In this document: positions 4,329 through 63,204 of the stretch, one piece after another
Layout: every line of letters starts with the position of its first letter
Position numbering within the stretch: position 1 is the stretch's first letter
Program-made: the position numbers and the translations under genes
Notes under the pieces: model-generated
Database searches by the model: none
What the model saw: the letters and a program-made list of their open reading frames with translations, nothing else
What the model was told of the DNA's origin: nothing
Assembly: GCA_023144005.1 (NCBI GenBank)
Contig: JAGLGN010000006.1
Span: 148,440 to 212,439 of the forward strand
DNA from: a bacterium
GTDB taxonomy: Bacteria; AUK180
DNA: 64,000 nt
Direction: 5' to 3'

Positions 4329-4909
4329 TGGAAAATCTGAATATATTAATAGTTGGTGTTGGCGGACAGGGCGTGATCCTTGCTTCGGAAGTCCTTACTC
4401 TGGTTGGGATAAAAGCCGGATTTGATGTTAAAAAGAGCGAGATCCACGGCATGTCTCAGCGCGGTGGAAGTGTTTCCTCGGACATCAGATTCAACAAGGT
4501 CAAGGTGCATTCTCCTGTTATCGCCAGAAAAAGCGCTGACTTTCTTGTGGGATTTGAAAAACTCGAGGCACTGAGAGCCATCGATATGGTCGCTGACGAC
4601 GGTATAATAATATCATCCAATTACCGCCTGGATCCGATGACCGTCTCCGCCGGCAGTATGATATATCCCGACGATGTTGAGGGTATTGTCAAAGAGAACC
4701 ATGAGAAGACATATTTCTTTGATCACGTTGAGACCATTGAGAAGATAAAGAATCCAAGAGCGGTAAATATCTATATACTCGGCGCATTGGCTTCATTTAT
4801 TGATATTGATAAAGAGATCTGGATCGAAGTGATAAAGAGCCGCGTACCTCCCAAAACGGTTGAATTGAATCTCAATGCTTTTGAAGAAGGGTTGAAGATT
4901 GGCGGTTAA
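4328..4909 (+). CDS. iorB: Indolepyruvate:ferredoxin oxidoreductase beta subunit
   Basis: 193 aa with ILIVGVGGQGVILASEVL. Its ATG overlaps the iorA stop (ATAATG). Confidence 0.85.
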   Translation: MENLNILIVGVGGQGVILASEVLTLVGIKAGFDVKKSEIHGMSQRGGSVSSDIRFNKVKVHSPVIARKSADFLVGFEKLEALRAIDMVADDGIIISSNYRLDPMTVSAGSMIYPDDVEGIVKENHEKTYFFDHVETIEKIKNPRAVNIYILGALASFIDIDKEIWIEVIKSRVPPKTVELNLNAFEEGLKIGG

Positions 4910-6923
4910 CAACCTCGTATTCTCCATATTGACCGAAGATATCCCCTTTGACGAGATACTGAGAACAAGAAATGTTTTCAGAAATATGATAGAGAAGCTT
5001 TTCTCCGACAATTCCATTGAAAAATCGGATCTGAAATTCTTTGCCACCCGAAACAGATCCGGCTTCATCGCCATGGACATGGAAGAGAAGCAGCCGGATT
5101 ACCGCGAGGAAGTCTGGGGGCCGCCCAAAGCGATATGCTTCGACGGCGCCGAAGAACCCACAAAGGCATTATCCGGATTCTGTAAAAAAGCGGGCATCGA
5201 GATCGGCGAAGCGGAATTTCATGATAAAGGGGGCAAGCCCTACGCTTTTTTCAATAAAAGCATCAAAGGAGAACGGTCCGTAGACATTCTTTCAAGACAT
5301 CTTCCTGAGCTGATCAGCCGACTGCCTTACAAAAAAAAGATGAATTTCGACGGGAAACAAAATTATATCCGTCCGATAAGAAGGGTGCTGTATCTCCTTG
5401 GGGACAAGGTGATCCCCTTGAAGATATTTGATGTATGCAGTTCAAATACCACATTAACAGCCCACTTCTCCCGCGAGATCAAGATAGATAAGGCCGGGGA
5501 CTTTATCGGGCAAATGGAAGGTAACGGTGTTCTGATCGAGCTTCATAAGAGAAAGGACCTGATCCGCAAGCAATTAGCAGCTCTTTCAGGTAATGGAATG
5601 AATATCGAGCTGGAAGATGATAAATTAACATATCTGGCGTTCCTGAACGAGAACCCCAGAGTCCTGGCAGGCAGTTTTCCCGAAAATTTTCTTGACCTTC
5701 CCGCAGAGATCATTGACCAAACCCTTTGGAAGCATCAGAAATGCGTCACTCTTACTAAAGATAATAAGGTGACGAATTCCTATATCACCGTGGTTGAAGA
5801 AGGCTGCGATCTGGAAAAAGTAGAGGCCAATTATTCTGATGTTATGCTATCGCGTTTATATGATGCGCGTTTCTTCTTTAATAATGACCTGAAACATAAG
5901 CCCGATCAAATGCAGAAAAAGCTGGAGCATGTTGTGTATTTCAATGATTGGGGAACCCTCGCGAGGGCCTCTGAATACCTCGTAATAATCGGAGAGTATC
6001 TTGCCCGGAAATTGGACCTTGACCCAAAGATCACCAGAGATGCGGCGCATTATTCAAAAATAGACCTTGTCTCCGAAATAATTTCCGAAAAAACATACAC
6101 CGACCTTCAGGGAATAATGGCAGGATACTATCTCAAGGAAGCGGGATTCGCCAAAGGGATCAGCGCGGCAGTTTCACAGCAATACCTCCCGGCGGGAGAG
6201 AATTCAGCATTACCCGAGACCATCGAAGGAGCGATCCTGTCTTTATCCAATAAGATATTACTGATGGCGGTATCGCATTTTTTGAATCTTCCCGTTACCG
6301 GTTCAAAGGATATATACGGCGTCCGCAGGGCGGCATTGGGATTTTATAAGGTCCTTTCTGAATTCAATATCCATATTGATATAAGCGCTCTTTTGAACCG
6401 CATTGACTTTCTGAATGAAATGCAGAAGAAACAGGTTTATAGCTTTATCGTTGAAAGGATACGGGCATTTGAAAGTGAGGTACACGGTATAAGCCGAGAG
6501 ATAATCGACGCTGCCGCATATTCCCCGGAACCCGATCTTCTCATGCTTAAGAAGAAGATATATTCATTAGAGAAATTCTCCAGGAATCCTGCATTTAGCG
6601 ACACTAAAACTACCCTGAAAAGAGTATTGAACATACTAGAAAAGGGCAGGGCCTTTGAGTTCCAGGAAGATTTTCTGATAGAAGATGCGGAGAAGCAGCT
6701 CTTTGACGAATTCCTTTTATTCAAAGAAAAGGTGGAGGGCGCCGGCGCGGACTTTGACCGGATCTGGAGCGCTATTTTGGACCTTAAGCCCGAGATCGAC
6801 CATTTCTTTGACAAAGTAATGGTCAATGTTGAAGATGAAAAGATAAAAAATAATAGAAAGGGCCTTTTGGCCTTGATCGGCGATATGCTTTTGAAGATCG
6901 CCAACTTTAAAATAATTAGCTAG
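4899..6923 (+). CDS. glyS: Glycyl-tRNA synthetase beta subunit
   Basis: 674 aa, alignable to E. coli GlyS (LLGDKVIP, the C-terminal FFDKVMV block). TTG start overlapping the iorB end. No glyQ is adjacent. Confidence 0.85.
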   Translation: MAVNNLVFSILTEDIPFDEILRTRNVFRNMIEKLFSDNSIEKSDLKFFATRNRSGFIAMDMEEKQPDYREEVWGPPKAICFDGAEEPTKALSGFCKKAGIEIGEAEFHDKGGKPYAFFNKSIKGERSVDILSRHLPELISRLPYKKKMNFDGKQNYIRPIRRVLYLLGDKVIPLKIFDVCSSNTTLTAHFSREIKIDKAGDFIGQMEGNGVLIELHKRKDLIRKQLAALSGNGMNIELEDDKLTYLAFLNENPRVLAGSFPENFLDLPAEIIDQTLWKHQKCVTLTKDNKVTNSYITVVEEGCDLEKVEANYSDVMLSRLYDARFFFNNDLKHKPDQMQKKLEHVVYFNDWGTLARASEYLVIIGEYLARKLDLDPKITRDAAHYSKIDLVSEIISEKTYTDLQGIMAGYYLKEAGFAKGISAAVSQQYLPAGENSALPETIEGAILSLSNKILLMAVSHFLNLPVTGSKDIYGVRRAALGFYKVLSEFNIHIDISALLNRIDFLNEMQKKQVYSFIVERIRAFESEVHGISREIIDAAAYSPEPDLLMLKKKIYSLEKFSRNPAFSDTKTTLKRVLNILEKGRAFEFQEDFLIEDAEKQLFDEFLLFKEKVEGAGADFDRIWSAILDLKPEIDHFFDKVMVNVEDEKIKNNRKGLLALIGDMLLKIANFKIIS

Positions 6924-10518: not shown

Positions 10519-11421
10519 CTACAATCTCTGAAATCGCTCTGTAACAATCTGAATTAATTTCTCTTTATATTCGGGATTTAACTGAGAATCATCGATCTGA
10601 TCAATAATTAATTGTTTCTTTGCCGTCATATTGTTCATTACTTTTTCAGGAATACTAAATTTATCGGAAAAGGCGGCGAAATCGGTAAGCTGAATATTAT
10701 TTTTCTTGCCATTCAATGCCAGGGCCAGATCCTCTTCGCGCGGGATCACTAATTTTGATGAAACAATATCATATGCGGGAGATAATCGTATATTATTCAT
10801 GTCTGTATAGATTACTGAATAATTCTTCAAATGCGCGTCACCGTTTCCGATTATAAAAGAAAATAGGACTCTTTCAAAGAGGTATTGAATGTCCAGGGCC
10901 GGTATTTCCGAGATCTCATTCAGCTTATTGGCTATCTGCTCCACCGATCCCGTATATTTGTCCTTTTTGGATTTTCCTAGAATCTGACAGAAATCTTCCT
11001 GATTGATCTTTCTGTTATTTTCACGGTCGAATCTCTTTACAATATAGGCATAGGAATCATCCTTCAATTTCATTAAAGCATGGGAAGGAATATCTATTCC
11101 GAGAAGTTCGGCTATTGTCATACAGAGATTTTCATTTTCAGGGATCTGATCATAAACCCGGCTTTGCGGCTTTAAAATATATTCTCCACCTTCTGTAACG
11201 GACATTAATTTCTTTGATCTTTTGTTCAATTTCATTGAAAGTTTTGGTTGAACTCCCGAAATTGACAACTTACCCGCCATCTCCTGAGCTTTAATGGTTA
11301 TTTCACTTAAAGCCAGATCAATACCGGGGATATAACTGACTCCAAAGAGTCTATTTATGCAGGATTTGTGCATTGCCTGATCTGTATTGAGTGGTTTTCC
11401 GCATACCGGACATCTGTTCAT
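10519..11421 (-). CDS. hipT: HipT-like Ser/Thr kinase toxin (HipA kinase core without the N-terminal subdomain)
   Basis: Gly-rich loop LSISGVQPKLS is HipA/HipT-like. The catalytic region has GNGDAHLKN (HipA D..H.KN motif). Preferred start is MNRCPVCGK at 11421, an ATGA overlap with the upstream stop with GAGGAG 6 nt upstream. The first residues form a CxxC...HxxC mini-motif. Confidence 0.75.
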   Translation of the reverse strand: MNRCPVCGKPLNTDQAMHKSCINRLFGVSYIPGIDLALSEITIKAQEMAGKLSISGVQPKLSMKLNKRSKKLMSVTEGGEYILKPQSRVYDQIPENENLCMTIAELLGIDIPSHALMKLKDDSYAYIVKRFDRENNRKINQEDFCQILGKSKKDKYTGSVEQIANKLNEISEIPALDIQYLFERVLFSFIIGNGDAHLKNYSVIYTDMNNIRLSPAYDIVSSKLVIPREEDLALALNGKKNNIQLTDFAAFSDKFSIPEKVMNNMTAKKQLIIDQIDDSQLNPEYKEKLIQIVTERFQRL

Positions 11422-11741
11422 AGGAGCTCCTCTACCGATATGGAGCCAATGGTTTCCCGGCATGTTGAAAGGAGTATTCCAAAATCATCATCCTTGTCTA
11501 TTTTCAATGTAGAAGACACTACTTCAAGATACCAACCCTCCGGAAGCAGTCCCTGAAAGAAGGGGAATAATTCATCGTCCTCATAAGGCGCTTTCCTTAA
11601 CGGTAATGAAATTGAGATCGGCACATTTTCTTGAATGAATTCCTTTTCATATGTGAATTTATACCCACCTTCTGTCTCTTCCAAGATACCCGCTTTTTGT
11701 TCATTTGAGTAAATCACTGCTTTTCTAAAATCACTTCTCAT
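11418..11741 (-). CDS. hipS: HipS-like protein (stand-alone HipA N-terminal subdomain)
   Basis: Matches the HipA N-terminus: ISLPL and FFQGLLPEGW (E. coli HipA SLSLPL / FFDNLLPD). Start is uncertain: ATG at 11741, or TTG at 11756 overlapping hipB. Confidence 0.65.
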   Translation of the reverse strand: MRSDFRKAVIYSNEQKAGILEETEGGYKFTYEKEFIQENVPISISLPLRKAPYEDDELFPFFQGLLPEGWYLEVVSSTLKIDKDDDFGILLSTCRETIGSISVEELL

Positions 11742-11931
11742 CTTTGATAATCTCAATATGATGTCCGAAAAACCGCAGAACCTGATTCAGCTTATCAAGC
11801 CGTATAGTTGCTTTGTTATTTTCCAGCTCTCGGATAAATCTTAGGCCTACACCGGCTCTTTCCGACAATTCAACTTGCGTTAAATCATATTTCTTTCTTA
11901 GTTCTTTAATTCTTTTACCAATATTGTTCAT
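11731..11931 (-). CDS. hipB: XRE/Cro-type HTH regulator (HipB-like antitoxin/repressor)
   Basis: 66 aa with LTQVELSERAGVGLRFIRELENNK HTH. It is the first gene of the three-gene operon. Confidence 0.7.
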   Translation of the reverse strand: MNNIGKRIKELRKKYDLTQVELSERAGVGLRFIRELENNKATIRLDKLNQVLRFFGHHIEIIKDEK

Positions 11932-11948: not shown

Positions 11949-12100
11949 ATTATAATCCCTTTAGGGTATAATGTCAAGAGGATTGCTTAATTATTTATAC
12001 CTCATCGGGTATAATATGGCTGATTTATCGAATTATTAATCCCTTTCGGGTATATATTCACACATACACCCCCAGATTTGCACCCTATCGGGTATAATAT
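11949..12100 (-). promoter_or_regulatory. hipBST promoter (TTGACA-17-TATAAT on the minus strand) with four dyad operator repeats
   Basis: Minus-strand -35 at 11972-11977 and -10 at 11949-11954. Four repeats of TATACCC-N4/5-GGG(A/T)T are centred near 11961, 12005, 12055 and 12089. The first lies in the promoter spacer. Confidence 0.5.
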
Positions 12101-12467: not shown

Positions 12468-13742
12468 ATGAATATCGGTATTATTATTGGAAGGATTGGT
12501 GATGTTGATGGGGTTGCTCTAGAAACAGAAAAATGGATACAAGTTCTCAAAGGAATGGGGCATAGGATATTTATTATGTCGGGACGATATGCAAGACATA
12601 TCGTCGAACCGGAAGATGAAACACTTGTCCAGATGCTTTCTTTCTTTTCACCTGAATGTGAATGGGAACAAAAAAGAGCATTTTTTCTTCCGAGATTTGA
12701 AGATCTTGATGAGCTTCTTGATCAACTTGAATATTCCTCCAACAGAATTGCTGTTTATATTTTCAAATGGATCCTTACCAACAGGATAGACATACTGCTT
12801 TCTGAAAATGCCTCCACTCTGCCATGTCATCTTTCGATGGGAATGGGTATCAAAAAAGTTGTTAAAAATACAGGCCTCAGAATTGTGTGTCACGATCACG
12901 ATTTTCATTGGGAAAGGGGGGATAGATATAAATCACCGTTTAAAGAAATAAATGATCTTGTTAACGGTACCTTCCCGCTGCTTTCTCCAAATGCCTCCCA
13001 CGCGGTAATAAATACTTATTCAAAAAATACATTGAGGGAAAAATTTGACATCGATGCTACCCTGGTCCCCAATGTAATGGATTTCAATGAACCTTATGCC
13101 GAAATAGATGAATATAACAGGGATATGCTTGATAATATCGGACTGGGAAAGGGGGATATTCCAATTTTTCAAGCCACCAGAATAGTGAGACGAAAGGGAA
13201 TCGGAACGGCAATAGAACTTATTGAACGGATTCAGGACACTAAAGTGAAATTGATAATAACAGGGACTTATGCCGATGACGAGAGATATGGATATTACAA
13301 GGAACTAATGCAGCTTGTAAAAGATAAAAATCTTAATGGCCGTGTATTTTTTTCTCGCAACAGAATACTCAGTCATAGAACTCAGTCGCACACGGGGAAA
13401 AAAATATATTCCCTGTCAGATGCTTATGCTCATGCGATAGCCTGCACATATTTCAGCAAATATGAAGGATTTGGAAACGCATTTATCGAGGCGGTACTTG
13501 CGAAGCGCCCTGTTTTTGTAAACAATTATAAGCCTGTGTTCTGGCACGACATAGGTTCCAAGGGTTTTAAAACGGTTATGATCGAGGAAAATAATTTAAC
13601 AGATGCCGCTGTGGATGAAATCTTTAAAATAATACACAGTAAAAAATTAAGAGGGGAAATTGCCGAACATAATTACAAACTTGCTCAAAAGTACTTTTCT
13701 TATGATGTGCTGGAAGAAAAATTAGCAGAACTATTTTACTGA
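12468..13742 (+). CDS. GT-B-fold glycosyltransferase-like protein, paralogue of the N-terminal module of the 14038 gene
   Basis: 424 aa. The C-terminal half resembles a GT4-like Rossmann domain (RIVRRKGIGTAIELIE...). It shares CHDHDFHWERG with NNNHDFYWEGG in the 1390-aa protein. Confidence 0.5.
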   Translation: MNIGIIIGRIGDVDGVALETEKWIQVLKGMGHRIFIMSGRYARHIVEPEDETLVQMLSFFSPECEWEQKRAFFLPRFEDLDELLDQLEYSSNRIAVYIFKWILTNRIDILLSENASTLPCHLSMGMGIKKVVKNTGLRIVCHDHDFHWERGDRYKSPFKEINDLVNGTFPLLSPNASHAVINTYSKNTLREKFDIDATLVPNVMDFNEPYAEIDEYNRDMLDNIGLGKGDIPIFQATRIVRRKGIGTAIELIERIQDTKVKLIITGTYADDERYGYYKELMQLVKDKNLNGRVFFSRNRILSHRTQSHTGKKIYSLSDAYAHAIACTYFSKYEGFGNAFIEAVLAKRPVFVNNYKPVFWHDIGSKGFKTVMIEENNLTDAAVDEIFKIIHSKKLRGEIAEHNYKLAQKYFSYDVLEEKLAELFY

Positions 13743-13749
13743 ACAGGCT

Positions 13750-14022
13750 AGTGTACTGTTCCATAAATACCATAACAATGGCTGAAGCTATTTTGTTACG
13801 GATTCAAGGCGCGAGGAACATCGCATACCCACTGCGGTATGTAAGCGACGAGCAACGCAGAAGACAGGAAAAGAGCTTCAGCCCGAAGGGAATATCAGCT
13901 TTGGTCAATTTCTTTCTCTCTTTTCGTTTATGTACCACTAAGGGTACGCCGCACTCATCGTTCGTTGAGATTGACTCAAATCTAAGCATTCCATTGTTAT
14001 GGTATTTATGGAACCGTACACT
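13750..14022 (+). mobile_element. MITE-like non-coding element with 32-bp terminal inverted repeats, copy A
   Basis: TIRs AGTGTACTGTTCCATAAATACCATAACAATGG / CCATTGTTATGGTATTTATGGAACCGTACACT. The body is about 85% identical to copy B (43638-43910) and to the reverse-oriented copy C (62598-63042). No ORF is conserved beyond nucleotide identity. Confidence 0.6.
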
Positions 14023-14037: not shown

Positions 14038-17000
14038 ATGAAAAGCGCAAAGGAAATGATGTTTTCTCTCAGGTCAGAAAAGATAGAAACATGGTTTGAT
14101 TTAGGACTCTATATAGACAGGATACGAGAAAGCAGAGATACACCGCAAACAGAAGGTTTTAATGATTTTGAGAGATTTACGGAGTTTGTTGCCGGGGGCA
14201 TTGCATTTATCACCTTCGATCTTTCAGTCGACGGTGTTTCCACTGAGATCGGGAAATATGCAAAATCCTTCAGGAAAATTATTAAAGATGTACCGGTGCA
14301 TTTTATCCTCGGTAAACTCAGCAATAGGGTAGGAAAAGATATTATAGACCCGTCCTATAAAATATTCGAGGTTCCTGAAATTGTTGGATTCAGTAAATGG
14401 AAACATTATAATGATTTTTTTCACACAGACCTTGAACGGGGGAGTGAGTCTTATAATAGTCTGATTTTGAATTTCTGGGATGAGGTTTTGAGTATAACAG
14501 AGAAATTGGGAAAGTATATTGAAGAAAATGATATAAGATTACTATTTTTAATCAATGCTTGTTCAAATCCCGGAAATGTATCCCTCGCGCTTGCAATGGT
14601 ATTTATTTCCGAGTTTATGGGTCTACCCGTCATAAACAATAATCATGACTTCTATTGGGAGGGGGGCAACAGCAGAATCGATATTGCAACTCAAAATCTA
14701 AACCCCGGACCAAGAGACCATTTTTTCCATAATTCACATATTGGGGAATTTTTTTCCCTGATTGAAGTTCTTTATACCTGGGAATCCCGTTCATGGCTGC
14801 AGATCAATATTAATAATTTTCAATCCCAACAACTTATTGAAAGGTACGGTCATAATCCAGCAAATATAACGGAGATAGGAACGGCAATAGATTTTAAATA
14901 TTATAGCGGCATAGAAAACGGAAGGATACTGGATATATATAAACAATTATTTGATATTTTTAGGAGTAAAAAGAAATATATCAATCCTCTTACTGCCAAA
15001 GAAGTAATTTCAAGAGAATTAATGTCAAAGGAAAATCCATTGCCCGTTTTCATAGGCAGGCGTAGGACCCTGTCATTAAAGGAAATAATTAATGATAATT
15101 TTATTTTTGTCCAACCGACCAGAATAGTAGCACGGAAAAAAATAGAGGTCAATTTTATTTTAATAAAGAAATTATTTGAAAACAAAGAATTTTCAAGATG
15201 CTTTGACAATAATCGACAGTTGAAATTAACTCTTTTAATAACCGGACCAATTGCGGGGGGGCATACCGAATATGCCGAAAGGCTTACTTGTTTGTTTTCC
15301 GAAATGCTGTCTAAAATGGATTCCCGTTATCGAAATAGAATATTTCTAGGATTTATTTTCAGTGAATTTGATCATCCTAATTTCAAAGGTCGATATGAAA
15401 AACCGATTTCAATACCGGAACTGTACAATATTGCATCACTTGTTCTGCTACCAAGTGAAACAGAAGGCCGTGGTCTGCCCATTATTGAGTCATCTGCCTG
15501 CGGGACACCTATTTTTGTTCGCAGGTATTACCCTGAGCATGTGTATTCCGCAGTGATTGGAGAACACCTTTCAATAGAAGAGCGTTTGAAAGTAATCGAG
15601 TTTAATAATGATAATATAGGAACGGAAATTATCGACAAGGTTGCAGATCATGTACTTCATCCCCAGGATTATATGATAGAAGCAGCTGAAAATAAACAAG
15701 TGGTCCGGAACAGATATACGCTCAACTCAATGAAAAACGATATCAGGAATGCGTTATATAAATTATTTCTTCAACTTTGTGATAATTCAGATAGCATGGG
15801 GCTTGCAATCTGGGCTTTAGAACAACATAACCATATTACCGAAAAAGATAATCTGGACTTGGAGAAAATACTGGATACCAATAATCGCCAATATTTGCCC
15901 GGATATGGGAAGATGCGGTTTATGATATTTCTCAAGTCGTTAATAGACCCAAGCTATTTCCGAGTAGAAGAACAGCGGTTCAAAGGGATGGCAATGAAAT
16001 TCGCAAGCAATCTTGTTCAATACAATCCAGACCCCACACCTCTTTCCCAGGAAAAAAAACACAAATTCTTTAACGCTGTGAATGATATATTTCTGTATAG
16101 AAAAGGTGATGTCCCCATAAGAATTGACCATTCCTTTAATTATAGACATCGAAACAAAAAGCATTATCCGTACAGGGACCTTACCTTTCAGGAGCTCACG
16201 GGGGTAATAACCATACTTTTTAATAAAATCGCATCTCCGCCCCCATATATAGAATTCAGGAATGAAGTCAGGCATTTAATTAATTTTAATCAGGCGATCC
16301 TTCAACTCACGAACAGCTCCGAACTTGCTATAGATCATAGAAAAAGATTAAAAGGAAGACTTGAAGAGAATGTCCCGGTAGCATTATTCCCCGGGAATTA
16401 TATAAATTACGAAATGGAGTTTTTTGTTCTTCAACCTATCCGTAAGCGGCTTGGGTTGATGGCGGAAGAGGAACTTACCGCTCAAATTCTTGAGTTAGCT
16501 GAAGATCTCGCTCCGATATACGTAATAAAACATAATGTCCCTATTGGACTTTCGATAACTGCCGATGCGTTAAAAAGCTATATTTCAAGTTCTGATAATT
16601 CAGAGATGAAACTTCTATTCGAATACGGGGTATGTAAAATAATTAAGAGTAATCAGGTAACGGTGGGAGTCCATTTTGAACAGCTTGGAAAGGAAGCTTT
16701 AAGAGCTTTAAGAGATGTAAAAGAGGGAAGTGGCTTTATTATCGCGAGTGGAGACCATTCCGCAATGATGACCGATCTTGTAAATATCGAAACATTTCAT
16801 ATTGGAAGAGCAACAAAAATATTAGCTTCAAAGATAATGGGGATCCCGGTTGGAAGCGGCTATCTTAATTGGGTGCCCGCCGGTCTGAGAAGTTGTCTTT
16901 CTTACCCCACTCCGGTGCAGACTTCTAGGGATTTCAGCGCGGCGCTGAAGAGCTCTGTTTTCAAAAGACTCTCTAAGAAATACGGTGAAGAGAAGATACT

Positions 17001-18210
17001 TGAAATTCTTAAGAAAGATGCCTCAACAAAGGGTTCCCCTGTAATGGATGTTTTAAACTCTCTTGTTTCGGATAAAGTATCAAATAAAGGTATTTCAACA
17101 TCTCAAATCATGGGGATTTACAAGGACGGTCTGCCTTGGGCAGGTGCGATGGCAAGGGTTGCGATAAAGGACAGCCGAAGACAATGGAATTTTAGTATTC
17201 AGGCCCGCGAGAACAATGAGACCATAACGGTACCGGAATTTTGCCGGGATTTTTATAAGAAGACCGGAAAGAAGCCTAATATTGCATGGAACGGCGGTTA
17301 TATACTGAATTCCGAGCTTGTCGGCAAACTTGGCATTTCGGCATCGTATATTGGTTCCTCACTCGGTCTAGTTATAACAGAGAAAAAGATAGTATCTCCG
17401 CCACTCTTCAATAAACCCGCATTTGGTATCTTTTCCAACGGCACATTGAAAATTGAGCGGGTAAATTGTTCTGAAGGAATTACCATTGTTGATACGAACA
17501 AGGAGATCGTTATTACAAAAGATCATTACAACATCTCCGATCCTGAAGACAAACCCTGTTTCTATGACCTTATGTATCCAGATGAATATATCAATGGCAA
17601 CGGCCATGTAATTTTCCGTTTTTCCCGAAATGTTATCAAAGAAATAATTCATACAAAAAAGGGAGAAAAAATTAAACTGTTGCCAGTGGGTCTCACCTTC
17701 TCATTTCCAAAACGATTAGTACCCGAGAGCTGGGATAGAATCGAAAAAGAGGCTATTTTCAAACTTCACTTCTGGAATGATGTTAAACACGCGCTTGAAG
17801 CCGGACCCATGCTTGTAGAGAACGGTAGGGTTTGTATAGATATGGAGTTGGAGGGATGGAAAACCACGAATTCCATTAGTACACAAGCCAGCAGACTTGA
17901 TTATCTTGATATGCGTGGCCCTAAAATAGCGGTTGGACTTGATATAGACGGAAATCTTATTGTCTTAACAGTAAATGGCAGAATAAGGGAATCGGTAGGC
18001 GCGACACATATAGATATGGCGGAAATTCTTTTATCAAAGGGAATAGTGACAGGTATGGGGTTTGACCCGGGCGGCAGCAGTACACTTGTAGTACATAATA
18101 AGATCCTGAATATTTCTCCGTATAATCATAAATATGAGAACGATATATATACCCTTCCACCGGAACCCAGAGCGGTATCAAATGTGGTGATCGGTTATTC
18201 AAGTAAGTAA
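14038..18210 (+). CDS. Large multidomain protein: GT-B glycosyltransferase-like N-terminal module + central unknown region + C-terminal phosphodiester glycosidase (NAGPA-like) domain
   Basis: 1390 aa with AGGGAGG RBS. The N-terminal 600 aa are paralogous to the 12468 gene. The C-terminus (AWNGGYILNS...LVENGRV...GATHIDMAEILLSKGIVTGMGFDPGGSSTLVV) is typical of the phosphodiester glycosidase family. Confidence 0.65.
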   Translation: MKSAKEMMFSLRSEKIETWFDLGLYIDRIRESRDTPQTEGFNDFERFTEFVAGGIAFITFDLSVDGVSTEIGKYAKSFRKIIKDVPVHFILGKLSNRVGKDIIDPSYKIFEVPEIVGFSKWKHYNDFFHTDLERGSESYNSLILNFWDEVLSITEKLGKYIEENDIRLLFLINACSNPGNVSLALAMVFISEFMGLPVINNNHDFYWEGGNSRIDIATQNLNPGPRDHFFHNSHIGEFFSLIEVLYTWESRSWLQININNFQSQQLIERYGHNPANITEIGTAIDFKYYSGIENGRILDIYKQLFDIFRSKKKYINPLTAKEVISRELMSKENPLPVFIGRRRTLSLKEIINDNFIFVQPTRIVARKKIEVNFILIKKLFENKEFSRCFDNNRQLKLTLLITGPIAGGHTEYAERLTCLFSEMLSKMDSRYRNRIFLGFIFSEFDHPNFKGRYEKPISIPELYNIASLVLLPSETEGRGLPIIESSACGTPIFVRRYYPEHVYSAVIGEHLSIEERLKVIEFNNDNIGTEIIDKVADHVLHPQDYMIEAAENKQVVRNRYTLNSMKNDIRNALYKLFLQLCDNSDSMGLAIWALEQHNHITEKDNLDLEKILDTNNRQYLPGYGKMRFMIFLKSLIDPSYFRVEEQRFKGMAMKFASNLVQYNPDPTPLSQEKKHKFFNAVNDIFLYRKGDVPIRIDHSFNYRHRNKKHYPYRDLTFQELTGVITILFNKIASPPPYIEFRNEVRHLINFNQAILQLTNSSELAIDHRKRLKGRLEENVPVALFPGNYINYEMEFFVLQPIRKRLGLMAEEELTAQILELAEDLAPIYVIKHNVPIGLSITADALKSYISSSDNSEMKLLFEYGVCKIIKSNQVTVGVHFEQLGKEALRALRDVKEGSGFIIASGDHSAMMTDLVNIETFHIGRATKILASKIMGIPVGSGYLNWVPAGLRSCLSYPTPVQTSRDFSAALKSSVFKRLSKKYGEEKILEILKKDASTKGSPVMDVLNSLVSDKVSNKGISTSQIMGIYKDGLPWAGAMARVAIKDSRRQWNFSIQARENNETITVPEFCRDFYKKTGKKPNIAWNGGYILNSELVGKLGISASYIGSSLGLVITEKKIVSPPLFNKPAFGIFSNGTLKIERVNCSEGITIVDTNKEIVITKDHYNISDPEDKPCFYDLMYPDEYINGNGHVIFRFSRNVIKEIIHTKKGEKIKLLPVGLTFSFPKRLVPESWDRIEKEAIFKLHFWNDVKHALEAGPMLVENGRVCIDMELEGWKTTNSISTQASRLDYLDMRGPKIAVGLDIDGNLIVLTVNGRIRESVGATHIDMAEILLSKGIVTGMGFDPGGSSTLVVHNKILNISPYNHKYENDIYTLPPEPRAVSNVVIGYSSK

Positions 18211-43548: not shown

Positions 43549-43938
43549 AAGATATGGGACATGTCGTACGCCATCGGCGTTCGTCTGTCCCGATGTAAAA
43601 ATACCAAGCGGAGAGTTGAAAATTGCGAAGCAATACGAGTGTTCTGATTCATAAAGACGGTAACAATGGCTGATGCTATATTGATCCGTATTCTAGGCGC
43701 GAGGAATGGTGCATACCCAGCACGGTATGTAAGCGACGAGCAACGCAGAAGACGGAAAAAGAGCTTCAGCCCGAAGGGAATATCATCTTTGATCAATTTC
43801 TTCCTCTCTCTTCGCTTATGTACCACTAAGGGTACGCAACGCTCATTGTTCGTTGGAATTGACTCAAACCTAAACATTCCATTGTCACTGTATGTATGAA
43901 TCAGAGCACTAAACTCTTCGCAATATATAAAATCACAC
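43549..43938 (-). repeat. Second repeat family, copy 2 (reverse orientation), carrying a nested MITE copy
   Basis: The flanks 43549-43637 and 43911-43938 match 20017-20132 in reverse complement. The 273-bp element sits between them at the position corresponding to 20038-20044. Confidence 0.45.
43638..43910 (+). mobile_element. MITE-like element copy B (273 bp, diverged TIRs)
   Basis: TIRs AGTGTTCTGATTCATAAAGACGGTAACAATGG / CCATTGTCACTGTATGTATGAATCAGAGCACT. The body is about 85% identical to copy A. Confidence 0.6.
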
Positions 43939-50124: not shown

Positions 50125-52842
50125 CTATCCCTCCTCATTCCATCTATCGATCTGTTCTTCGCAGCGGCGGCAGATGCCCTCCGCAGACAATTCGGTATTA
50201 TAACTCCAGCAACGGGAACATTTCTCTCCCGGCGCCTTACTAATATCTATCTTATATGTTTCGGACATCTTCATGTCTTTTTCAAGAATAACCTCTGAAA
50301 CTATGAAGAACTCCCTTAGGTCGAAATTATTCAATATCTCTTCAAATTTATCATTATTGAAGGAGAGCGTAAGAGAGGCGTCCAAGGAGAGCCCGATCTC
50401 TTTATTTGCCCTCAGATCCTCCATGATCTTCTGGACCTTTTCCCGCAATTCGAACATTATATCCAATTCTCGGTCCCACTCCGCCCACTCTGCCGGAATA
50501 TCATCCCATCTCTCAAGAAAAACCGATTCCTTTTCGGAGAAGAGGTATTTAAATACTTCTTCCGCCGTGAAGGAGAGAACGGGAGACATTCGCTGGACAA
50601 GGAGTTTCACCATATTAAAGAGAACGGTCTGCGCGGAACGCCGCTCCTTTGATCTCGAGGGAGATGTATAGAGACGTGATTTTATCATATCGAAATACTG
50701 CGCGCTCAATGTTACAGTAGAGAATTCTGTCAGCAGATGGTAGATCTTATGGAACTCGAATCTTTCATAGGCGGAATCCAGTTTATTGATCAGGATGTAC
50801 AGCTGATTCAATGCCCATCGGTCAAGCGTCAGCAATTCTGAATATTCGATCTGATCCTTCTGCGGATCGAAATCTTCAATGTTCATTAAAGAAAAGCGCA
50901 ATTTATTTCTGATATTCTTATAGGTATCAACGGTTTGCTTCAAAACATTATGTGAGAATCGGAAATCCTCCGTATAATCGATGCTGGATACCCATAATCT
51001 CAATATTTCGGCACCGTACTGTTTTATCACATCCAGGGGAGATATAACATTTCCGCGTGATTTGGACATAGGCCGGCCGTTCGCGTCAAGGGAAAATCCA
51101 TGTGTCAGAACCTTCTTATAAGGAGGAGAGCCGGTTATTCCGGCAGCGGGCCACATGCTGGACTGGAACCATCCGCGGTATTGATCGGTACCTTCCAAAT
51201 ACATATCTACGGGAACATCTTCACCCATTTTTTTCTTGACAACGGCATACCACGATACTCCGGAGTCAAACCAGACATCCAGGATATTGGATCCTTTTTT
51301 TAGCTTGGCAGAACCACAGGAAGGGCATTTGATATTTCCCGGTTCAAGGTCTTTAAGTTCTTTTGAAAACCATATATCTGTGGAATCTTTTCTTATCTGC
51401 TCAACAAGTGTATCGGTAAAATCAGCGTCGATGAATTCTTCCTCACATTCTTCACAAACAAGAGAAGGAATGGGAACTCCCCAACTGCGCTGGCGCGATA
51501 TACACCAATCAACACGATTCTCTATCATATTTACAAAACGGGTCTCGCCCCATTTGGGAACCCATTGAGTATCCTTAGAAAATCTCAATACGGATGATTT
51601 CAATTTTTCATTCATCGTATCAATGAACCATTGAGGGGTCGCCCTGAAGATCAGTGGTTTGTGACAGCGCCAGCAATGCGGATATGAATGGCTGAACTCT
51701 GCGTATTTCACAAGCAGTCCTTTTTCTTTAAGTTTCTCTACTATAAGAGGATTTGCCTTGAATATATGCATTCCCTCGAACATCTTGAACTCATCGGTGA
51801 ACCTGCCCTTGTCATCGACGGGGGCGAAGATATCAAGGCCGTATTTCTTGCCCACCTGAAAATCATCCGCACCGTGGCCGGGAGCGGTATGCACACAGCC
51901 CGTCCCCTGCTCCAGAGTAACATGATCGCCCAGTACAACAGGACACTCCTTATCTAAAAGAGGGTGGGAATATTTCAACCCTTCCAGTTGATTTCCCTTT
52001 TCTTCTGAAATCACTTCATATTCTGAAATTTCCATTTCTTCCATGGCTTTTGACAGAAGATCTCTGGCTATGATCCAAGTCTCATCCCCGACTTTCACCC
52101 TGGTATAAACAAATTTCGGATGTACCGTGACGGCAAGATTCGCGGGAAGCGTCCACGGTGTTGTGGTCCAGATGACCAAGGAAGTGTTCTCTTCTGACAG
52201 GAGGGGCATTTTCACATAAATGCTGGGAGATGTGTGGTCTTCAAATTCCACCTCTGCTTCAGCAAGGGCGGTCTGACATGAAAAACACCAGTGAATCGGC
52301 TTGCTCCCTTTATAAATATACCCTTTTCGGTACATCTTATTGAAGGCCTCTAAGATATCCGCTTCATAATCATGATCCATTGTGAAATAGGGATCTTCCC
52401 AATCTCCGAGGATACCAAGGGATTTGAATTCCTCTTTTTGTATCTCAATGAATTTGGCGGCATAATCCCGGCACTTTTTTCTGAAAACCGTTACATCGTC
52501 ACCCTTATAATCGCCCTTGACCTTGAGCTCAATAGGCAGGCCGTGGCAATCCCAGCCCGGGACATACGGAGAATGATGCCCCTTCGCCCAATAATATTTA
52601 ACTACAAAATCCTTCAATATCTTATTCAGGGCATGGCCGATATGAAGATGACCGTTAGCATACGGAGGGCCGTCATGCAGTATCTTCTTATCTCCATCCT
52701 TGTTTCTGCCGATGATCTTCCCATAGATGTCGTTCGTGTTCCAGAATTCAACTAACTTGGGCTCTTTCTCCGAAAGATTGGCCCTCATGGAAAAATCGGT
52801 CTTCAACAGATTTAAAAACTCTTTATTGTCTTTAGCGGACAT
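50125..52842 (-). CDS. ileS: Isoleucyl-tRNA synthetase
   Basis: 905 aa with HIGH (PPYANGHLHIGHALN), KMSKS and a C-terminal Zn-binding Cys motif. Confidence 0.95.
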   Translation of the reverse strand: MSAKDNKEFLNLLKTDFSMRANLSEKEPKLVEFWNTNDIYGKIIGRNKDGDKKILHDGPPYANGHLHIGHALNKILKDFVVKYYWAKGHHSPYVPGWDCHGLPIELKVKGDYKGDDVTVFRKKCRDYAAKFIEIQKEEFKSLGILGDWEDPYFTMDHDYEADILEAFNKMYRKGYIYKGSKPIHWCFSCQTALAEAEVEFEDHTSPSIYVKMPLLSEENTSLVIWTTTPWTLPANLAVTVHPKFVYTRVKVGDETWIIARDLLSKAMEEMEISEYEVISEEKGNQLEGLKYSHPLLDKECPVVLGDHVTLEQGTGCVHTAPGHGADDFQVGKKYGLDIFAPVDDKGRFTDEFKMFEGMHIFKANPLIVEKLKEKGLLVKYAEFSHSYPHCWRCHKPLIFRATPQWFIDTMNEKLKSSVLRFSKDTQWVPKWGETRFVNMIENRVDWCISRQRSWGVPIPSLVCEECEEEFIDADFTDTLVEQIRKDSTDIWFSKELKDLEPGNIKCPSCGSAKLKKGSNILDVWFDSGVSWYAVVKKKMGEDVPVDMYLEGTDQYRGWFQSSMWPAAGITGSPPYKKVLTHGFSLDANGRPMSKSRGNVISPLDVIKQYGAEILRLWVSSIDYTEDFRFSHNVLKQTVDTYKNIRNKLRFSLMNIEDFDPQKDQIEYSELLTLDRWALNQLYILINKLDSAYERFEFHKIYHLLTEFSTVTLSAQYFDMIKSRLYTSPSRSKERRSAQTVLFNMVKLLVQRMSPVLSFTAEEVFKYLFSEKESVFLERWDDIPAEWAEWDRELDIMFELREKVQKIMEDLRANKEIGLSLDASLTLSFNNDKFEEILNNFDLREFFIVSEVILEKDMKMSETYKIDISKAPGEKCSRCWSYNTELSAEGICRRCEEQIDRWNEEG

Positions 52843-52960
52843 TTTCTACTCCTGCAAATGAATCGTGTATTTTATCATAATAATTCTACATGTCAAAATT
52901 TTGTATAGGAAGGATGGATGGATGTGTTGAATTCCTACACTAACTGTGGTAAAATCTCAC

Positions 52961-62029: not shown

Positions 62030-63204
62030 CGGCTCGCTGATTTTCCTTGATACTCCTTTCGTATCTGCCTTTACAACAAGGTTAAATGGTGTTTCTTCGG
62101 GCAATTTCTCATCTTTCAATCTATACTTCGGTAGAGGGGATAAACTGGAAGATGTTGAGCGTAACTGGGAGATTTTGCGCGAATATCTTGATTTTAACGG
62201 CAAGATCGTCTTGCCGCAGCAAATACACTCATCTACGATAAAATATGTTCCTGAAAATCTCGAACAAGGCGGTATCAACCATATTCCTCAATGTGATGGA
62301 TTGATAACGGACAAAAAAGGGGTCCTCACAGGAGTAATGTTCGCCGATTGCCTTCCGGTGCTTATCTGGGGTACGAGATATGCCGCTATTCTGCATGCCG
62401 GATGGCGGGGACTCGCGTCCGGGATCATTGGAAATGGGGTACGCGAACTTATCTCCAAGGGAGAAAACCCATCAGAACTCAATGCGGCCTTGGGACCGTG
62501 TATAGCCGCGGAAGATTATGAAGTAGGTCAAGAAGTTGTCCGTGCCTTCACCGACGCCGGGCTTGAAAATGCCGTTGAACGGTCAGGCAGCAGCTATAGT
62601 GTACTATTCCATATATACCATATCAATGGAATGTTTAGATTTGAGTCAATTCCAACGAACAATAAGCGCAGCGTACCCTTTGTGGTCCGTAAGCGAAGAG
62701 AGAGGAAGAAATTGACCAAAGATGATATTCCCTTCGAGCTGAAGCTCTTTTTCTGTCTTCTGCGTTGCAAGTGCTCTGATTTAAAATCCGCTGACAATGG
62801 AATGTTTAGATTTGAGGCAATTCCAACGAATAATGAGCACGGCGTACCCTTGGTGGTCCGTGAGCGAAGAATGAGGAAGAAATTGACCAAAGATAAGATT
62901 CCCTCTGGGCTGAATCTCTTTTGCCGTCTTCTACGTTCCTCGTCCCTTACATACCGCCTGCGGGTATGCAGCGCTCCTCGCTCCTTGAATACGACACAAA
63001 ATAGTTTCAGCCATTGTTGTGGTATTTATGGAACAGCACACTCGAGCATCTCTTGTCAAAGGTGCTGTCTTTCAATTGATCGAATTCAAAGTTGCCAATA
63101 TCTATTTTGAAAGGTATAATACATACGGACAGAGTGAGAAATTTTTCTCTTACCGAAGGGACGGAGCGAAGGTAGGAGAGATGCTGATGTTTTTTATCCT
63201 ATAG
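61989..63204 (+). pseudogene. pgeF: pgeF/yfiH (DUF152 purine nucleoside phosphorylase / peptidoglycan editing factor) interrupted by a 445-bp element
   Basis: The 5' part (61989-62597) aligns to YfiH up to ...AFTDAGLENAVERSGSSY (ADCLPV, HAGWRGL). The 3' part (63043-63204) encodes RASLVKGAVFQLIEFKVANIYFERYNTYGQSEKFFSYRRDGAKVGEMLMFFIL, matching the YfiH C-terminus (ETFFSYRRD). Removing 62598-63042 joins the two in frame. Confidence 0.7.
62598..63042 (-). mobile_element. MITE-like element copy C (composite, 445 bp, reverse orientation) inserted in pgeF
   Basis: Outer TIRs AGTGTACTATTCCATATATACCATATCAATGG / CCATTGTTGTGGTATTTATGGAACAGCACACT. An internal partial body is followed by a second B-type start-TIR (AGTGCTCTGATTTAAAATCCGCTGACAATGG) near 62775, then a complete body. 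Confidence 0.65.

What the first reader, a model, noticed from the sequence alone, without database searches (positions are those of the whole stretch)
10519..11931. Tripartite HipB-HipS-HipT-like toxin-antitoxin operon (split HipA) with ATGA translational coupling
Gene order HTH(hipB) -> 108-aa HipA-N-subdomain protein -> 300-aa kinase core. The small protein carries the HipA N-terminal motifs (ISLPL, FFQGLLPEGW). The kinase has the Gly-rich loop LSISGVQPKLS with the SxS arrangement (the two phospho-serines reported for HipT) and the D..H.KN catalytic motif. The hipS stop and the hipT ATG overlap as ATGA. HipT begins with a Cys-x2-Cys...His-x2-Cys mini-motif (MNRCPVCGKPLNTDQAMHKSC) that I cannot assign. 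This matches the HipBST architecture described for E. coli O127, transferred here to a distant anaerobe.
Basis: partly seen in the sequence, partly recalled or inferred. Interest (0 to 1): 0.55.

Follow-up and report, generated by a model that had tools for sequence, protein, structure and literature searches.

The report
HipBST kinase toxin-antitoxin operon
This is an intact three-gene HipB-HipS-HipT toxin-antitoxin cassette, a known kind that is very common in uncultivated bacteria, and its unexplained cysteine motif looks like a conserved zinc-binding knuckle that the two best-studied model HipT proteins (E. coli, Legionella) have lost.

Summary
On the minus strand lie hipB (11931-11731, 66 aa), hipS (11741-11418, 107 aa, not 108) and hipT (11421-10519, 300 aa). 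hipS and hipT overlap as ATGA.

The best solved relatives are Legionella HipT/HipS (8e-54, 8e-21), then E. coli O127 HipT/HipS. The predicted fold matches HipT(Lp) at TM 0.89. The catalytic residues, the S53-I-S55 loop and the HipS inhibitory Trp70 are all in place.

Added here:
- A perfect sigma-70 promoter with four phased operators, TATACCC-N4-GGGTATA. The same motif is 87-fold enriched upstream of hipB in related loci from many phyla.
- The CxxC...HxxC motif is invariant in close homologues and present in 102 of 114 diverse representatives with a scorable N-terminus. It is either complete or lost. It lies in the HipT N-terminal mini-domain, whose role is unknown.

The kinase target is uncertain. 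The protein is closer to HipT(Lp), whose target is not TrpS or GltX. The identical protein is already in NCBI.

Verdict: an ordinary new member of a known family, with two modest family-wide additions.

The parts
11731..11931 (-). hipB: 66-aa XRE/Cro-type HTH protein, the predicted autorepressor
   Evidence: HTH_19/HTH_3 at 1e-10. NCBIfam TIGR03070 couple_hipB/Y4mF scores 75.5 bits against a cutoff of 71.65. Weak match to HipB(Lp) 8ezt, E 3e-4. No C-terminal Trp or extension.
11418..11741 (-). hipS: 107-aa stand-alone HipA N-subdomain-1 homologue, the predicted antitoxin. It overlaps hipB by 11 nt.
   Evidence: Couple_hipA 1.2e-26 and TIGR03071 4.4e-27. HipS(Lp) 8e-21, HI_0666 7e-16, HipS O127 6e-10.
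11532..11534 (-). Codon for HipS Trp70 in the PEGW motif, equivalent to E. coli HipS Trp65
   Evidence: Aligned to 'apegw' of 7ab3_B; position. Trp65 inserts into the HipT active site in E. coli (PMC10627512). PEGW is present in 65 of 76 related loci.
10519..11421 (-). hipT: 300-aa HipA-core Ser/Thr kinase, the predicted toxin. Its ATG overlaps the hipS stop as ATGA.
   Evidence: HipA_C 1.5e-52. HipT(Lp) 8e-54 over the full length; HipT O127 9e-23. AF2 model pLDDT 90.1; Foldseek TM 0.89 to 7wcf.
11359..11412 (-). Codons 4-21 of hipT: C4-x2-C7 ... H18-x2-C21, the putative zinc knuckle inside the N-terminal mini-domain
   Evidence: All four residues are invariant in 49 homologues of 53-95% identity. 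Present in 102 of 114 diverse representatives with a scorable N-terminus. Complete or absent in related loci. The model shows a beta-hairpin followed by a helix starting at residue 19, with pLDDT 88.
11242..11271 (-). Codons 51-60: Gly-rich loop KLSISGVQPK, with S53 and S55 forming the S-psi-S motif
   Evidence: Aligned to Ec HipT residues 57/59. SIS is found in 73 of 76 related loci. pLDDT is below 50 here, consistent with a mobile loop.
10822..10839 (-). Codons 195-200: catalytic motif D-A-H-L-K-N
   Evidence: Read directly from the sequence. D195 aligns with Ec D210 and Lp D197. D195, H197 and N200 are invariant in A1.
10768..10770 (-). Codon for D218, the Mg-binding Asp (= Ec HipT D233)
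   Evidence: Alignment. Invariant in A1.
11949..11977 (-). Sigma-70-type promoter TTGACA-17-TATAAT, 12 of 12 consensus matches
11953..11970 (-). Operator O1, TATACCCTAAAGGGATTA. It fills the -35/-10 spacer and overlaps the -10 hexamer.
11996..12013 (-). Operator O2, TATACCCGATGAGGTATA
12037..12054 (-). Operator O3, TATACCCGAAAGGGATTA
12079..12096 (-). Operator O4, TATACCCGATAGGGTGCA

Best explanation
This is a functional, autoregulated tripartite type II toxin-antitoxin module of the HipBST kind.

Inferred by homology to the E. coli O127 and Legionella systems:
- HipT is a HipA-core Ser/Thr kinase. When free, it phosphorylates an essential cellular target, most likely an aminoacyl-tRNA synthetase, and stops growth.
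- HipS, which corresponds to the detached N-subdomain 1 of HipA, is the antitoxin. It docks on the N-lobe of HipT and inserts Trp70 beside the Gly-rich loop, holding the loop in its outward, ATP-incompetent state.
- S53 and S55 in that loop are probable autophosphorylation sites that tune toxicity and neutralisation by HipS.

Inferred from the sequence and from comparative footprinting:
- HipB is not the antitoxin. It is a dimeric HTH repressor that binds four palindromic operators (TATACCC-N4-GGGTATA) spaced 41-43 bp apart, about four helical turns. One operator lies inside the promoter spacer, so the operon shuts itself off.
- The overlapping stop and start codons couple translation, which fixes the HipS:HipT ratio.
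- The first 25 residues of HipT form a small Cys2-His-Cys zinc knuckle. It stabilises the N-terminal mini-domain that leads into the Gly-rich loop.

Shown here: gene structure, family membership, conservation of every catalytic and interface residue, predicted fold, promoter and operator anatomy, and conservation of these features across phyla.
Not shown: toxicity, neutralisation, DNA binding, metal binding, or the identity of the target.
For: Family and fold
- Family and PDB matches.
- Fold: pLDDT 90.1; TM 0.89 to HipT(Lp) and 0.85 to HipT(Ec).

Residue mapping
- S53/S55, D195, H197, K199, N200 and D218 all align with their counterparts.
- The residues of HipT(Lp) shown by mutation to bind HipS (D133, R134, E144, R154, K157, K201; PMC9325769) correspond here to D132, R133, E142, K152, K155 and K199.
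- HipS E68/W70 equal Ec E63/W65 (PMC10627512).
- HipB is only 66 aa and has no C-terminal Trp.

Promoter and operators
- In E. coli and Legionella, HipB alone represses or binds the promoter.
- The promoter matches consensus 12 of 12.
- The window has four operators, against 0.03 expected by chance for the pattern.
- ACCC-N4-GGG occurs at 3.99 per kb upstream of hipB in 73 related loci, against 0.046 per kb elsewhere.
- 73 of 74 upstream regions, the window's included, carry at least one site. Spacings cluster at 31, 41-42, 52, 72-73 and 82-83 bp.

Conservation of the cassette
- The hipB-hipS-hipT order holds in 75 of 80 related loci.
- An NTGA overlap of hipS and hipT occurs in 47 of 76.
- The ORFs are intact and identical on several independent assemblies.

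Zinc knuckle
- The four ligands are invariant in close homologues.
- 102 of 114 diverse representatives with a scorable N-terminus have all four.
- In related loci the motif is complete or absent.
- The model shows a confident hairpin-plus-helix at the N-terminus.
Against: - There is no experimental evidence for this copy.
- The kinase target cannot be assigned. The protein is much closer to HipT(Lp) (8e-54) than to HipT(Ec) (9e-23), and HipT(Lp) toxicity is not rescued by TrpS or GltX; its target is unknown (bioRxiv 10.1101/2022.11.26.518041).
- HipS(Lp) neutralises by remodelling the P-loop and has no Trp at this position, so the exact inhibitory mechanism varies within the family.
- Zinc binding is inferred only from ligand pattern, conservation and predicted secondary structure.
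- About half of the close relatives, mostly Omnitrophota, lack the knuckle entirely, so it is dispensable for basic function.
- The HipB match to solved HipB(Lp) is weak (3e-4).
Confidence: 0.85

Rival explanations
1. The module architecture is as described, and the target is specifically tryptophanyl-tRNA synthetase, as for E. coli O127, H. influenzae and T. auensis HipT. On this reading it is a straightforward TrpS-inhibiting, stringent-response-inducing HipBST.
For: It shares the S-psi-S Gly-rich loop (S53-I-S55) and the HipS Trp with the E. coli type. S-psi-S is the largest HipT group (PMC10627512). E. coli TrpS rescues HipT from three species (PMC6581861, as cited).
Against: Overall sequence and fold are closer to HipT(Lp), whose toxicity is not rescued by TrpS or GltX. 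Identity to HipT(Ec) is only 23% in the structural alignment, and the E. coli protein carries insertions in loops proposed to bind the target. No TrpS gene or paralogue lies in the window.
Confidence: 0.4
2. The cassette's main biological role is anti-phage abortive infection or stabilisation of a mobile island, not persistence. The biochemistry is the same, but the kinase is released on infection or on loss of the element.
For: The nearest relative (74% identity, same sample series) sits in a completely different neighbourhood with Fic, RadC, RhuM and PLD genes, typical of mobile or defence islands. Here the cassette is wedged between housekeeping genes (PPDK, HAD) and glycosyltransferases. 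Weak PADLOC hits point to the candidate defence system PDC-M03, which pairs a HipA-like kinase with a HipS-like partner (1e-11 and 5e-5).
Against: The PADLOC matches are partial and weak. No phage, integrase or other defence genes flank this copy. GC content is similar to the right-hand flank. No phage-challenge data exist for any HipBST system in the papers read.
Confidence: 0.3
3. HipB is the real antitoxin, as in canonical HipBA, and HipS is merely a structural lid supplied in trans.
For: HipB and the kinase core are homologous to HipBA components. In E. coli, HipB augments neutralisation (PMC8262856).
Against: HipB here is 66 aa and ends ...EIIKDEK. It has no C-terminal extension or Trp that could reach the kinase. 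In both characterised HipBST systems, HipS and not HipB neutralises HipT. The HipS Trp and the HipS-contact residues of HipT are conserved.
Confidence: 0.05
4. The operon is a decayed, non-functional remnant or a pseudokinase.
For: None specific. TA loci are often degenerate in genomes.
Against: All three ORFs are intact. Every catalytic and ATP-binding residue is conserved. The promoter is a perfect consensus match. The identical sequence was recovered from several independent samples.
Confidence: 0.03

Closest known systems
Legionella pneumophila HipBST (Lpg2368-Lpg2369-Lpg2370; PDB 7vkb, 7vkc, 7wcf, 8ezr, 8ezs, 8ezt)
   Same: - Closest solved relative of both HipT (E 8e-54 over the full length, TM 0.89, 34-38% identity) and HipS (8e-21).
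- Short HipB (72 aa against 66 aa here).
- 4-nt gene overlap.
- Same size and domain layout.
- HipS-contact residues of HipT conserved.
   Different: - Legionella has an S-V-Q loop with one phospho-serine; this copy has S-I-S.
- HipS(Lp) has PEGI where this copy has PEGW.
- Legionella HipT keeps only the first Cys of the N-terminal motif (KHCPITYEKI...), so it has no zinc site.
- It is reported as a translocated effector, and its target is unknown.
E. coli O127:H6 HipBST (PDB 7ab3, 7ab4, 7ab5)
   Same: - hipB-hipS-hipT order with overlapping genes.
- S-I-S Gly-rich loop (S57/S59).
- HipS E63/W65 motif.
- Catalytic D210 and D233 equivalents.
- N-terminal mini-domain in HipT.
- HipB acts as the repressor.
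   Different: - Only 23% identity in the structural alignment (E 9e-23).
- E. coli HipT is 335 aa, with loop insertions.
- E. coli HipB is 107 aa, with an extra N-terminal helix.
- The mini-domain lacks three of the four Zn ligands (MANCRILLTPL...).
- TrpS is a proven target there and unproven here.
Haemophilus influenzae HipS (HI_0666; PDB 7czo), part of that species' hipBST
   Same: HipS homologue at E 7e-16 with the PEGW motif. Its HipT toxicity is rescued by TrpS.
   Different: Only the HipS structure is solved. It comes from a proteobacterial host.
Canonical HipBA (E. coli K-12, Shewanella oneidensis)
   Same: - Same kinase core and catalytic motifs (E 1e-11 to 1e-15, TM about 0.68).
- HipB HTH repressor.
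- Multiple palindromic operators in the promoter.
   Different: - HipA carries N-subdomain 1 in the same polypeptide.
- HipB is the antitoxin.
- Per my own knowledge of the hipBA literature, not checked here, the E. coli operator is TATCC-N8-GGATA, not TATACCC-N4-GGGTATA.
- There is no N-terminal mini-domain.

Membership tests
HipBST tripartite TA system (HipT clade III of Gerdes et al. 2021) | Three co-directional genes in the order hipB, hipS, hipT, closely packed or overlapping | tested here: met
   11931..10519 on the minus strand, with an 11-nt and a 4-nt (ATGA) overlap. Public gene calls give the same genes. The same order holds in 75 of 80 related loci.
HipBST tripartite TA system (HipT clade III of Gerdes et al. 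2021) | HipS is a stand-alone protein of about 100 aa, homologous to HipA N-subdomain 1 | tested here: met
   107 aa. Couple_hipA 1.2e-26 and TIGR03071 4.4e-27. Best PDB hits are HipS(Lp), HI_0666 and HipS(Ec).
HipBST tripartite TA system (HipT clade III of Gerdes et al. 2021) | HipT is a HipA core kinase that lacks N-subdomain 1 but keeps the Gly-rich loop, catalytic motif and Mg-binding motif | tested here: met
   HipA_C 1.5e-52 over residues 52-266. Gly-rich loop at residues 51-60, D195-x-H-x-K-N200, and D218. Fold TM 0.89 to HipT(Lp) and 0.85 to HipT(Ec).
HipBST tripartite TA system (HipT clade III of Gerdes et al. 2021) | [quoted passage not shown] | tested here: met
   Residues 1-48 align to residues 2-49 of HipT(Lp) and 4-52 of HipT(Ec). 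They are modelled with pLDDT 88-95. Unlike both models, this copy carries all four Cys/His ligands.
HipBST tripartite TA system (HipT clade III of Gerdes et al. 2021) | Ser/Thr autophosphorylation positions in the Gly-rich loop (S-psi-S group) | tested here: met
   S53-I54-S55 align with Ec S57-I-S59. Only the sequence was tested; phosphorylation itself cannot be tested with these tools.
HipBST tripartite TA system (HipT clade III of Gerdes et al. 2021) | HipB is an HTH protein without the C-terminal toxin-contacting residue of HipBA HipB | tested here: met
   TIGR03070 at 75.5 bits against a cutoff of 71.65. 66 aa ending ...HHIEIIKDEK, with no Trp.
HipBST tripartite TA system (HipT clade III of Gerdes et al. 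2021) | HipT is toxic and is neutralised by HipS, not by HipB | not testable with these tools
   Supported only indirectly, by conservation of HipS Trp70/Glu68 and of the HipS-contact residues of HipT.
HipBST tripartite TA system (HipT clade III of Gerdes et al. 2021) | HipT phosphorylates TrpS. This defines the E. coli-type subgroup only; it is not true of the Legionella system. | not testable with these tools
   No TrpS gene in the window. The closest characterised homologue does not use TrpS.
Canonical HipBA | A single HipA polypeptide of about 440 aa with N-subdomain 1 fused to the kinase core | tested here: not met
   The two parts are separate ORFs in different reading frames, joined by an ATGA overlap. 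Matches to HipA cover only residues 50-267.
PADLOC candidate defence system PDC-M03 | Full-length match of both proteins to the PDC-M03A and PDC-M03B models | tested here: not met
   Only partial, weak matches: 1e-11 over residues 96-240 for M03A, and 4.6e-5 over residues 17-63 of a 245-position model for M03B.

The most novel reading that the evidence does not exclude
The Cys2-His-Cys knuckle at the HipT N-terminus is more than a structural staple. On this reading it is a metal- or redox-sensitive switch, or a target- or HipB-docking element, that controls the adjacent Gly-rich loop and so controls toxin activation. It would be the ancestral, majority state of the HipT clade and of fused HipS-HipT kinases. 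The two best-characterised model proteins (E. coli O127 and Legionella) are degenerate exceptions, which would explain why the mini-domain is still described as being of unknown significance.
Probability: 0.12. Interest if true: 0.55.

Novelty: new member of a known kind. Interest (0 to 1): 0.3.

Why it matters
As a single locus it matters little. It adds one more HipBST cassette, and the protein is already deposited and annotated as a HipA-domain protein.

The comparative by-products are more useful.

1. The published HipT phylogeny used 48 orthologues. The databases hold thousands, mostly in uncultivated phyla. The E. coli-type regulatory features, the S-psi-S loop and the HipS Trp, dominate there.

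2. The HipT mini-domain, described as being of unknown significance, carries a near-universal four-ligand metal motif. Both well-studied model proteins lack it. This gives a concrete handle for mutagenesis and metal analysis.

3. A conserved, helically phased 18-bp operator gives a testable model for HipB autoregulation across phyla.

4. This copy combines a Legionella-like overall sequence with E. coli-like regulatory motifs. That makes it, or a cultivable relative, a useful test case for what determines HipT target choice.

Tried and rejected
- Looked for a target synthetase or paralogue in the window. It holds GlyS-beta (4896-6923) and IleS (50125-52845, minus strand), both ordinary housekeeping genes, and no TrpS or GltX.
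- Looked for a compositional island. The operon's GC (0.36-0.41) is lower than PPDK's (about 0.47) but equal to the glycosyltransferase flank, so this is not informative.
- PADLOC gave only weak partial hits to PDC-M03, so the operon was not filed there.
- Pfam hits on HipT to Rad50_zn_hook (E 0.014) and EF-hand (E 0.01-0.02) fall below their cutoffs and were discarded as noise.
- Considered the longer 314-aa hipT start (MPGNHW...). Rejected because 97 of 120 homologues start within a few residues of the first Cys, public gene calls use the 300-aa start, and an AGGAG sits 7 nt upstream of it.
- Considered the TTG start for hipS, which would give 112 aa. Rejected on the same grounds.
- Tried to read the model coordinates to measure the Zn-ligand geometry. 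They are not exposed to scripts.
- Host taxonomy could not be resolved. The GTDB representative scan found no match better than 69% for HipT. IleS falls from 98% (an unclassified 'bacterium') to 50% or less for every named phylum.
- The literature search for HipT plus zinc found nothing relevant.
Full report
**1. What is in the sequence.**

The region 10519-11931 holds three co-directional ORFs on the minus strand:
- hipB, 11931..11731, 66 aa, MNNIGKRIKELRKK...
- hipS, 11741..11418, 107 aa from its ATG, MRSDFRKAV...
- hipT, 11421..10519, 300 aa, MNRCPVCGK...

hipB and hipS overlap by 11 nt. An AGGAG lies 7 nt upstream of the hipT ATG. Gene calls on identical public contigs from several independent assemblies give the same 66/107/300-aa genes.

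There are small corrections to the finding:
- HipS is 107 aa, not 108.
- The catalytic motif is D-x-H-x-K-N (GDAHLKN).
- The operon is on the minus strand.

**2. Family assignment.**

Profile matches:
- HipT matches Pfam HipA_C at 1.5e-52.
- HipS matches Couple_hipA at 1.2e-26 and TIGR03071 at 4.4e-27.
- HipB matches HTH_3/HTH_19 at about 1e-10. It also passes the curated cutoff of TIGR03070, the HipB-type 'couple_hipB'/Y4mF antitoxin model (75.5 bits against 71.65).

Solved structures:
- HipT is best matched by Legionella pneumophila HipT (8ezr/7vkb, E 8e-54, end to end). E. coli O127 HipT follows (7ab3, 9e-23), then HipA (1e-11 to 1e-15).
- HipS is best matched by HipS(Lp) (8e-21), H. influenzae HI_0666 (7e-16) and E. 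coli O127 HipS (6e-10).

An AlphaFold2 model of HipT was built on 49 homologues. It has mean pLDDT 90.1 and pTM 0.90. Foldseek places it on HipT(Lp) at TM 0.89, on HipT(Ec) at 0.85 and on HipA at about 0.68.

**3. Functional residues.**

On the HMMER alignments:
- S53 and S55 correspond to the two autophosphorylated serines of E. coli HipT, S57 and S59.
- D195 corresponds to the catalytic Asp (Ec D210, Lp D197).
- D218 corresponds to the Mg-binding Asp (Ec D233).

These residues, together with K84, H197 and N200, are invariant in a 49-sequence alignment spanning 53-95% identity.

The residues of HipT(Lp) that bind HipS by mutagenesis are D133, R134, E144, R154, K157 and K201 (PMC9325769). Here they map to D132, R133, E142, K152, K155 and K199.

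HipS carries P67-E68-G69-W70, which aligns with E. coli HipS E63/W65. In E. coli, Trp65 is wedged beside the Gly-rich loop and is essential for antitoxin function (PMC10627512).

HipB ends ...HHIEIIKDEK and has no C-terminal Trp. This resembles HipB of HipBST and differs from HipB of HipBA.

The Gly-rich loop (residues 49-56) is the only part of the model with pLDDT below 50. That fits its known in/out mobility.

**4.

Immediately upstream of hipB is a perfect TTGACA-17-TATAAT promoter at 11977..11949. Four 18-bp palindromes of the form TATACCC-N4-GGG(T/A)TA lie at 11953-11970, 11996-12013, 12037-12054 and 12079-12096. They are spaced 41-43 bp apart, about four helical turns. The first fills the -35/-10 spacer and overlaps the -10 hexamer. 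The pattern that finds three of the four is expected 0.03 times in the window by chance.

This is not peculiar to this copy:
- In 73 related loci from many phyla, ACCC-N4-GGG occurs at 3.99 per kb in the 220 nt upstream of hipB. Elsewhere in the same loci it occurs at 0.046 per kb, an 87-fold difference.
- The flanking bases complete a TATACCC-twwa-GGGTATA palindrome.
- With the 18-mer consensus (at least 11 of 14 matches), 73 of 74 upstream regions, the window's included, have at least one site, and most have two to four.
- Spacings fall at 31, 41-42, 52, 72-73 and 82-83 bp, which is three, four, five, seven and eight helical turns.

In E. coli and Legionella, HipB alone represses or binds the hipBST promoter, and HipT enhances this. 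I therefore infer autorepression by HipB dimers bound on one face of the DNA. The HipBST papers I read describe no operator sequence.

**5. The unassigned Cys/His motif.**

C4, C7, H18 and C21 are as invariant as the catalytic residues in the 49-sequence alignment.

Among 76 related loci in reference genomes, 36 have all four ligands. The other 40, mostly Omnitrophota, lack a complete motif, and most lack the first ~17 residues altogether, starting at the equivalent of residue ~17.

Of 149 diverse cluster representatives (34-63% identity), 35 were N-terminally truncated or could not be parsed. Among the other 114:
- 102 carry CxxC...[H/C]xxC.
- 12 do not. Several of these have the Legionella-like 'C-P-[IL]-T-Y-E-P-L' N-terminus together with an S-[IV]-Q loop.

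Fused HipS-HipT proteins of 440-460 aa carry the motif between the two domains (for example P0166, P0181, P0203).

The model puts C4/C7 in a short beta-hairpin and H18/C21 at the start of helix 19-26, with pLDDT 88. This is the arrangement of a zinc knuckle plus helix N-terminus, and is treble-clef-like by my own reading.

[quoted passage not shown] E. coli and Legionella HipT keep only the first Cys. None of the four HipBST papers I searched mentions zinc or cysteine ligands, and a library search for HipT plus zinc found nothing relevant.

I conclude that this is most likely a structural Zn site that is ancestral in the clade and has been lost in the model systems. Metal binding itself is an inference. 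I could not read the model coordinates to check the geometry.

**6. Distribution, host and context.**

- The exact HipT sequence is already in NCBI as 'HipA domain-containing protein [bacterium]'.
- More than 7,498 proteins match at E <= 1e-10 in the 90% clusters. Among the 50%-identity representatives, 7,803 match at E <= 1e-3 and 316 at E <= 1e-30.
- In GTDB representative genomes, 230 loci matched two narrow peptide patterns. They come from Omnitrophota, Elusimicrobia, Verrucomicrobiota, Aminicenantes, Clostridia, Planctomycetes, Spirochaetota and others. 75 of the 80 kept loci have the hipB-hipS-hipT order.
- An NTGA overlap of hipS and hipT occurs in 47 of 76.

The host is not a GTDB representative. 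Its IleS has a 98% match labelled only 'bacterium', and identity then falls to 64-66% and to 50% or less for every named phylum. A pyruvate:ferredoxin-oxidoreductase-type gene in the window fits an anaerobe.

Here the cassette lies between housekeeping genes (GlyS-beta, PPDK, a HAD hydrolase) and glycosyltransferase genes. The closest relative (74% identity, same sample series) lies among Fic, RadC, RhuM and PLD genes. The cassette therefore moves between contexts, as TA modules do.

**7. What remains uncertain.**

The main open point is the target. E. coli, H. influenzae and T. auensis HipT act on TrpS. HipT(Lp), the closest characterised relative of this protein, is not rescued by TrpS or GltX, and its target is unknown.

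This copy combines a Legionella-like overall sequence with E. coli-like regulatory motifs (S-I-S loop, HipS Trp). I put TrpS at roughly 0.4.

The biological role (persistence, addiction or stabilisation, phage defence) cannot be decided from sequence. PADLOC gives only weak partial matches to a candidate HipA-like system, PDC-M03.

**8. Verdict.**

This is an ordinary, intact member of the known HipBST family, so novelty is low.

Two family-wide observations came out of the check and are, as far as the papers I could read show, undescribed:
- the near-universal Cys2-His-Cys knuckle in the HipT mini-domain;
- the conserved, helically phased TATACCC-N4-GGGTATA operators.

Both are incremental and directly testable. 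Interest 0.3.

Noticed in passing
window 13750-14022 and 43638-43910; a diverged piece at 62926-62955 (-): A repeated element of about 273 nt, with the two full copies 89% identical. It is closed by a 32-nt terminal inverted repeat (97% and 84% complementary in the two copies), and some differences between the copies in that stem are compensatory. It folds far better than shuffled sequence on either strand (z about -8.6) and matches no Rfam family. It could be a MITE-like element or a structured RNA/DNA repeat. One copy lies just upstream of the 1390-aa glycosyltransferase/NAGPA gene.
   Followed up: partly
window 50125-52845 (-): The isoleucyl-tRNA synthetase has a 98% match labelled only 'bacterium'. 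Identity then falls to 64-66% and to 50% or less for all named phyla. The source organism therefore belongs to a poorly sampled lineage and is not among the GTDB species representatives searched.
   Followed up: partly
proteins P0166, P0181, P0203, P0211, P0230, P0242 (440-460 aa) and P0151, P0178, P0182, P0185, P0186 (about 620-630 aa): Relatives of this HipT exist in two other forms. In one, a HipS-like domain is fused in front, with the Cys/His knuckle between the two domains. In the other, there is a C-terminal extension of about 300 aa. The fusions suggest the knuckle occupies the position of the HipA inter-subdomain linker.
   Followed up: no
locus L086 1-12000 (contig ZHAN22-2_SAMN18200493 scaffold_169): The closest hipBST relative (74% identity) sits in an island with Fic, an HTH protein, RadC, RhuM, a metallo-beta-lactamase-fold protein and a PLD-family protein. 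This looks like a mobile or defence island, unlike the housekeeping context in the window.
   Followed up: no
window 14038-18210 (+): A very large (1390-aa) protein combines a group-1 glycosyltransferase region with a C-terminal NAGPA phosphodiester-glycosidase domain. It follows a 424-aa glycosyltransferase gene (12468-13742) that is transcribed divergently from hipBST.
   Followed up: no
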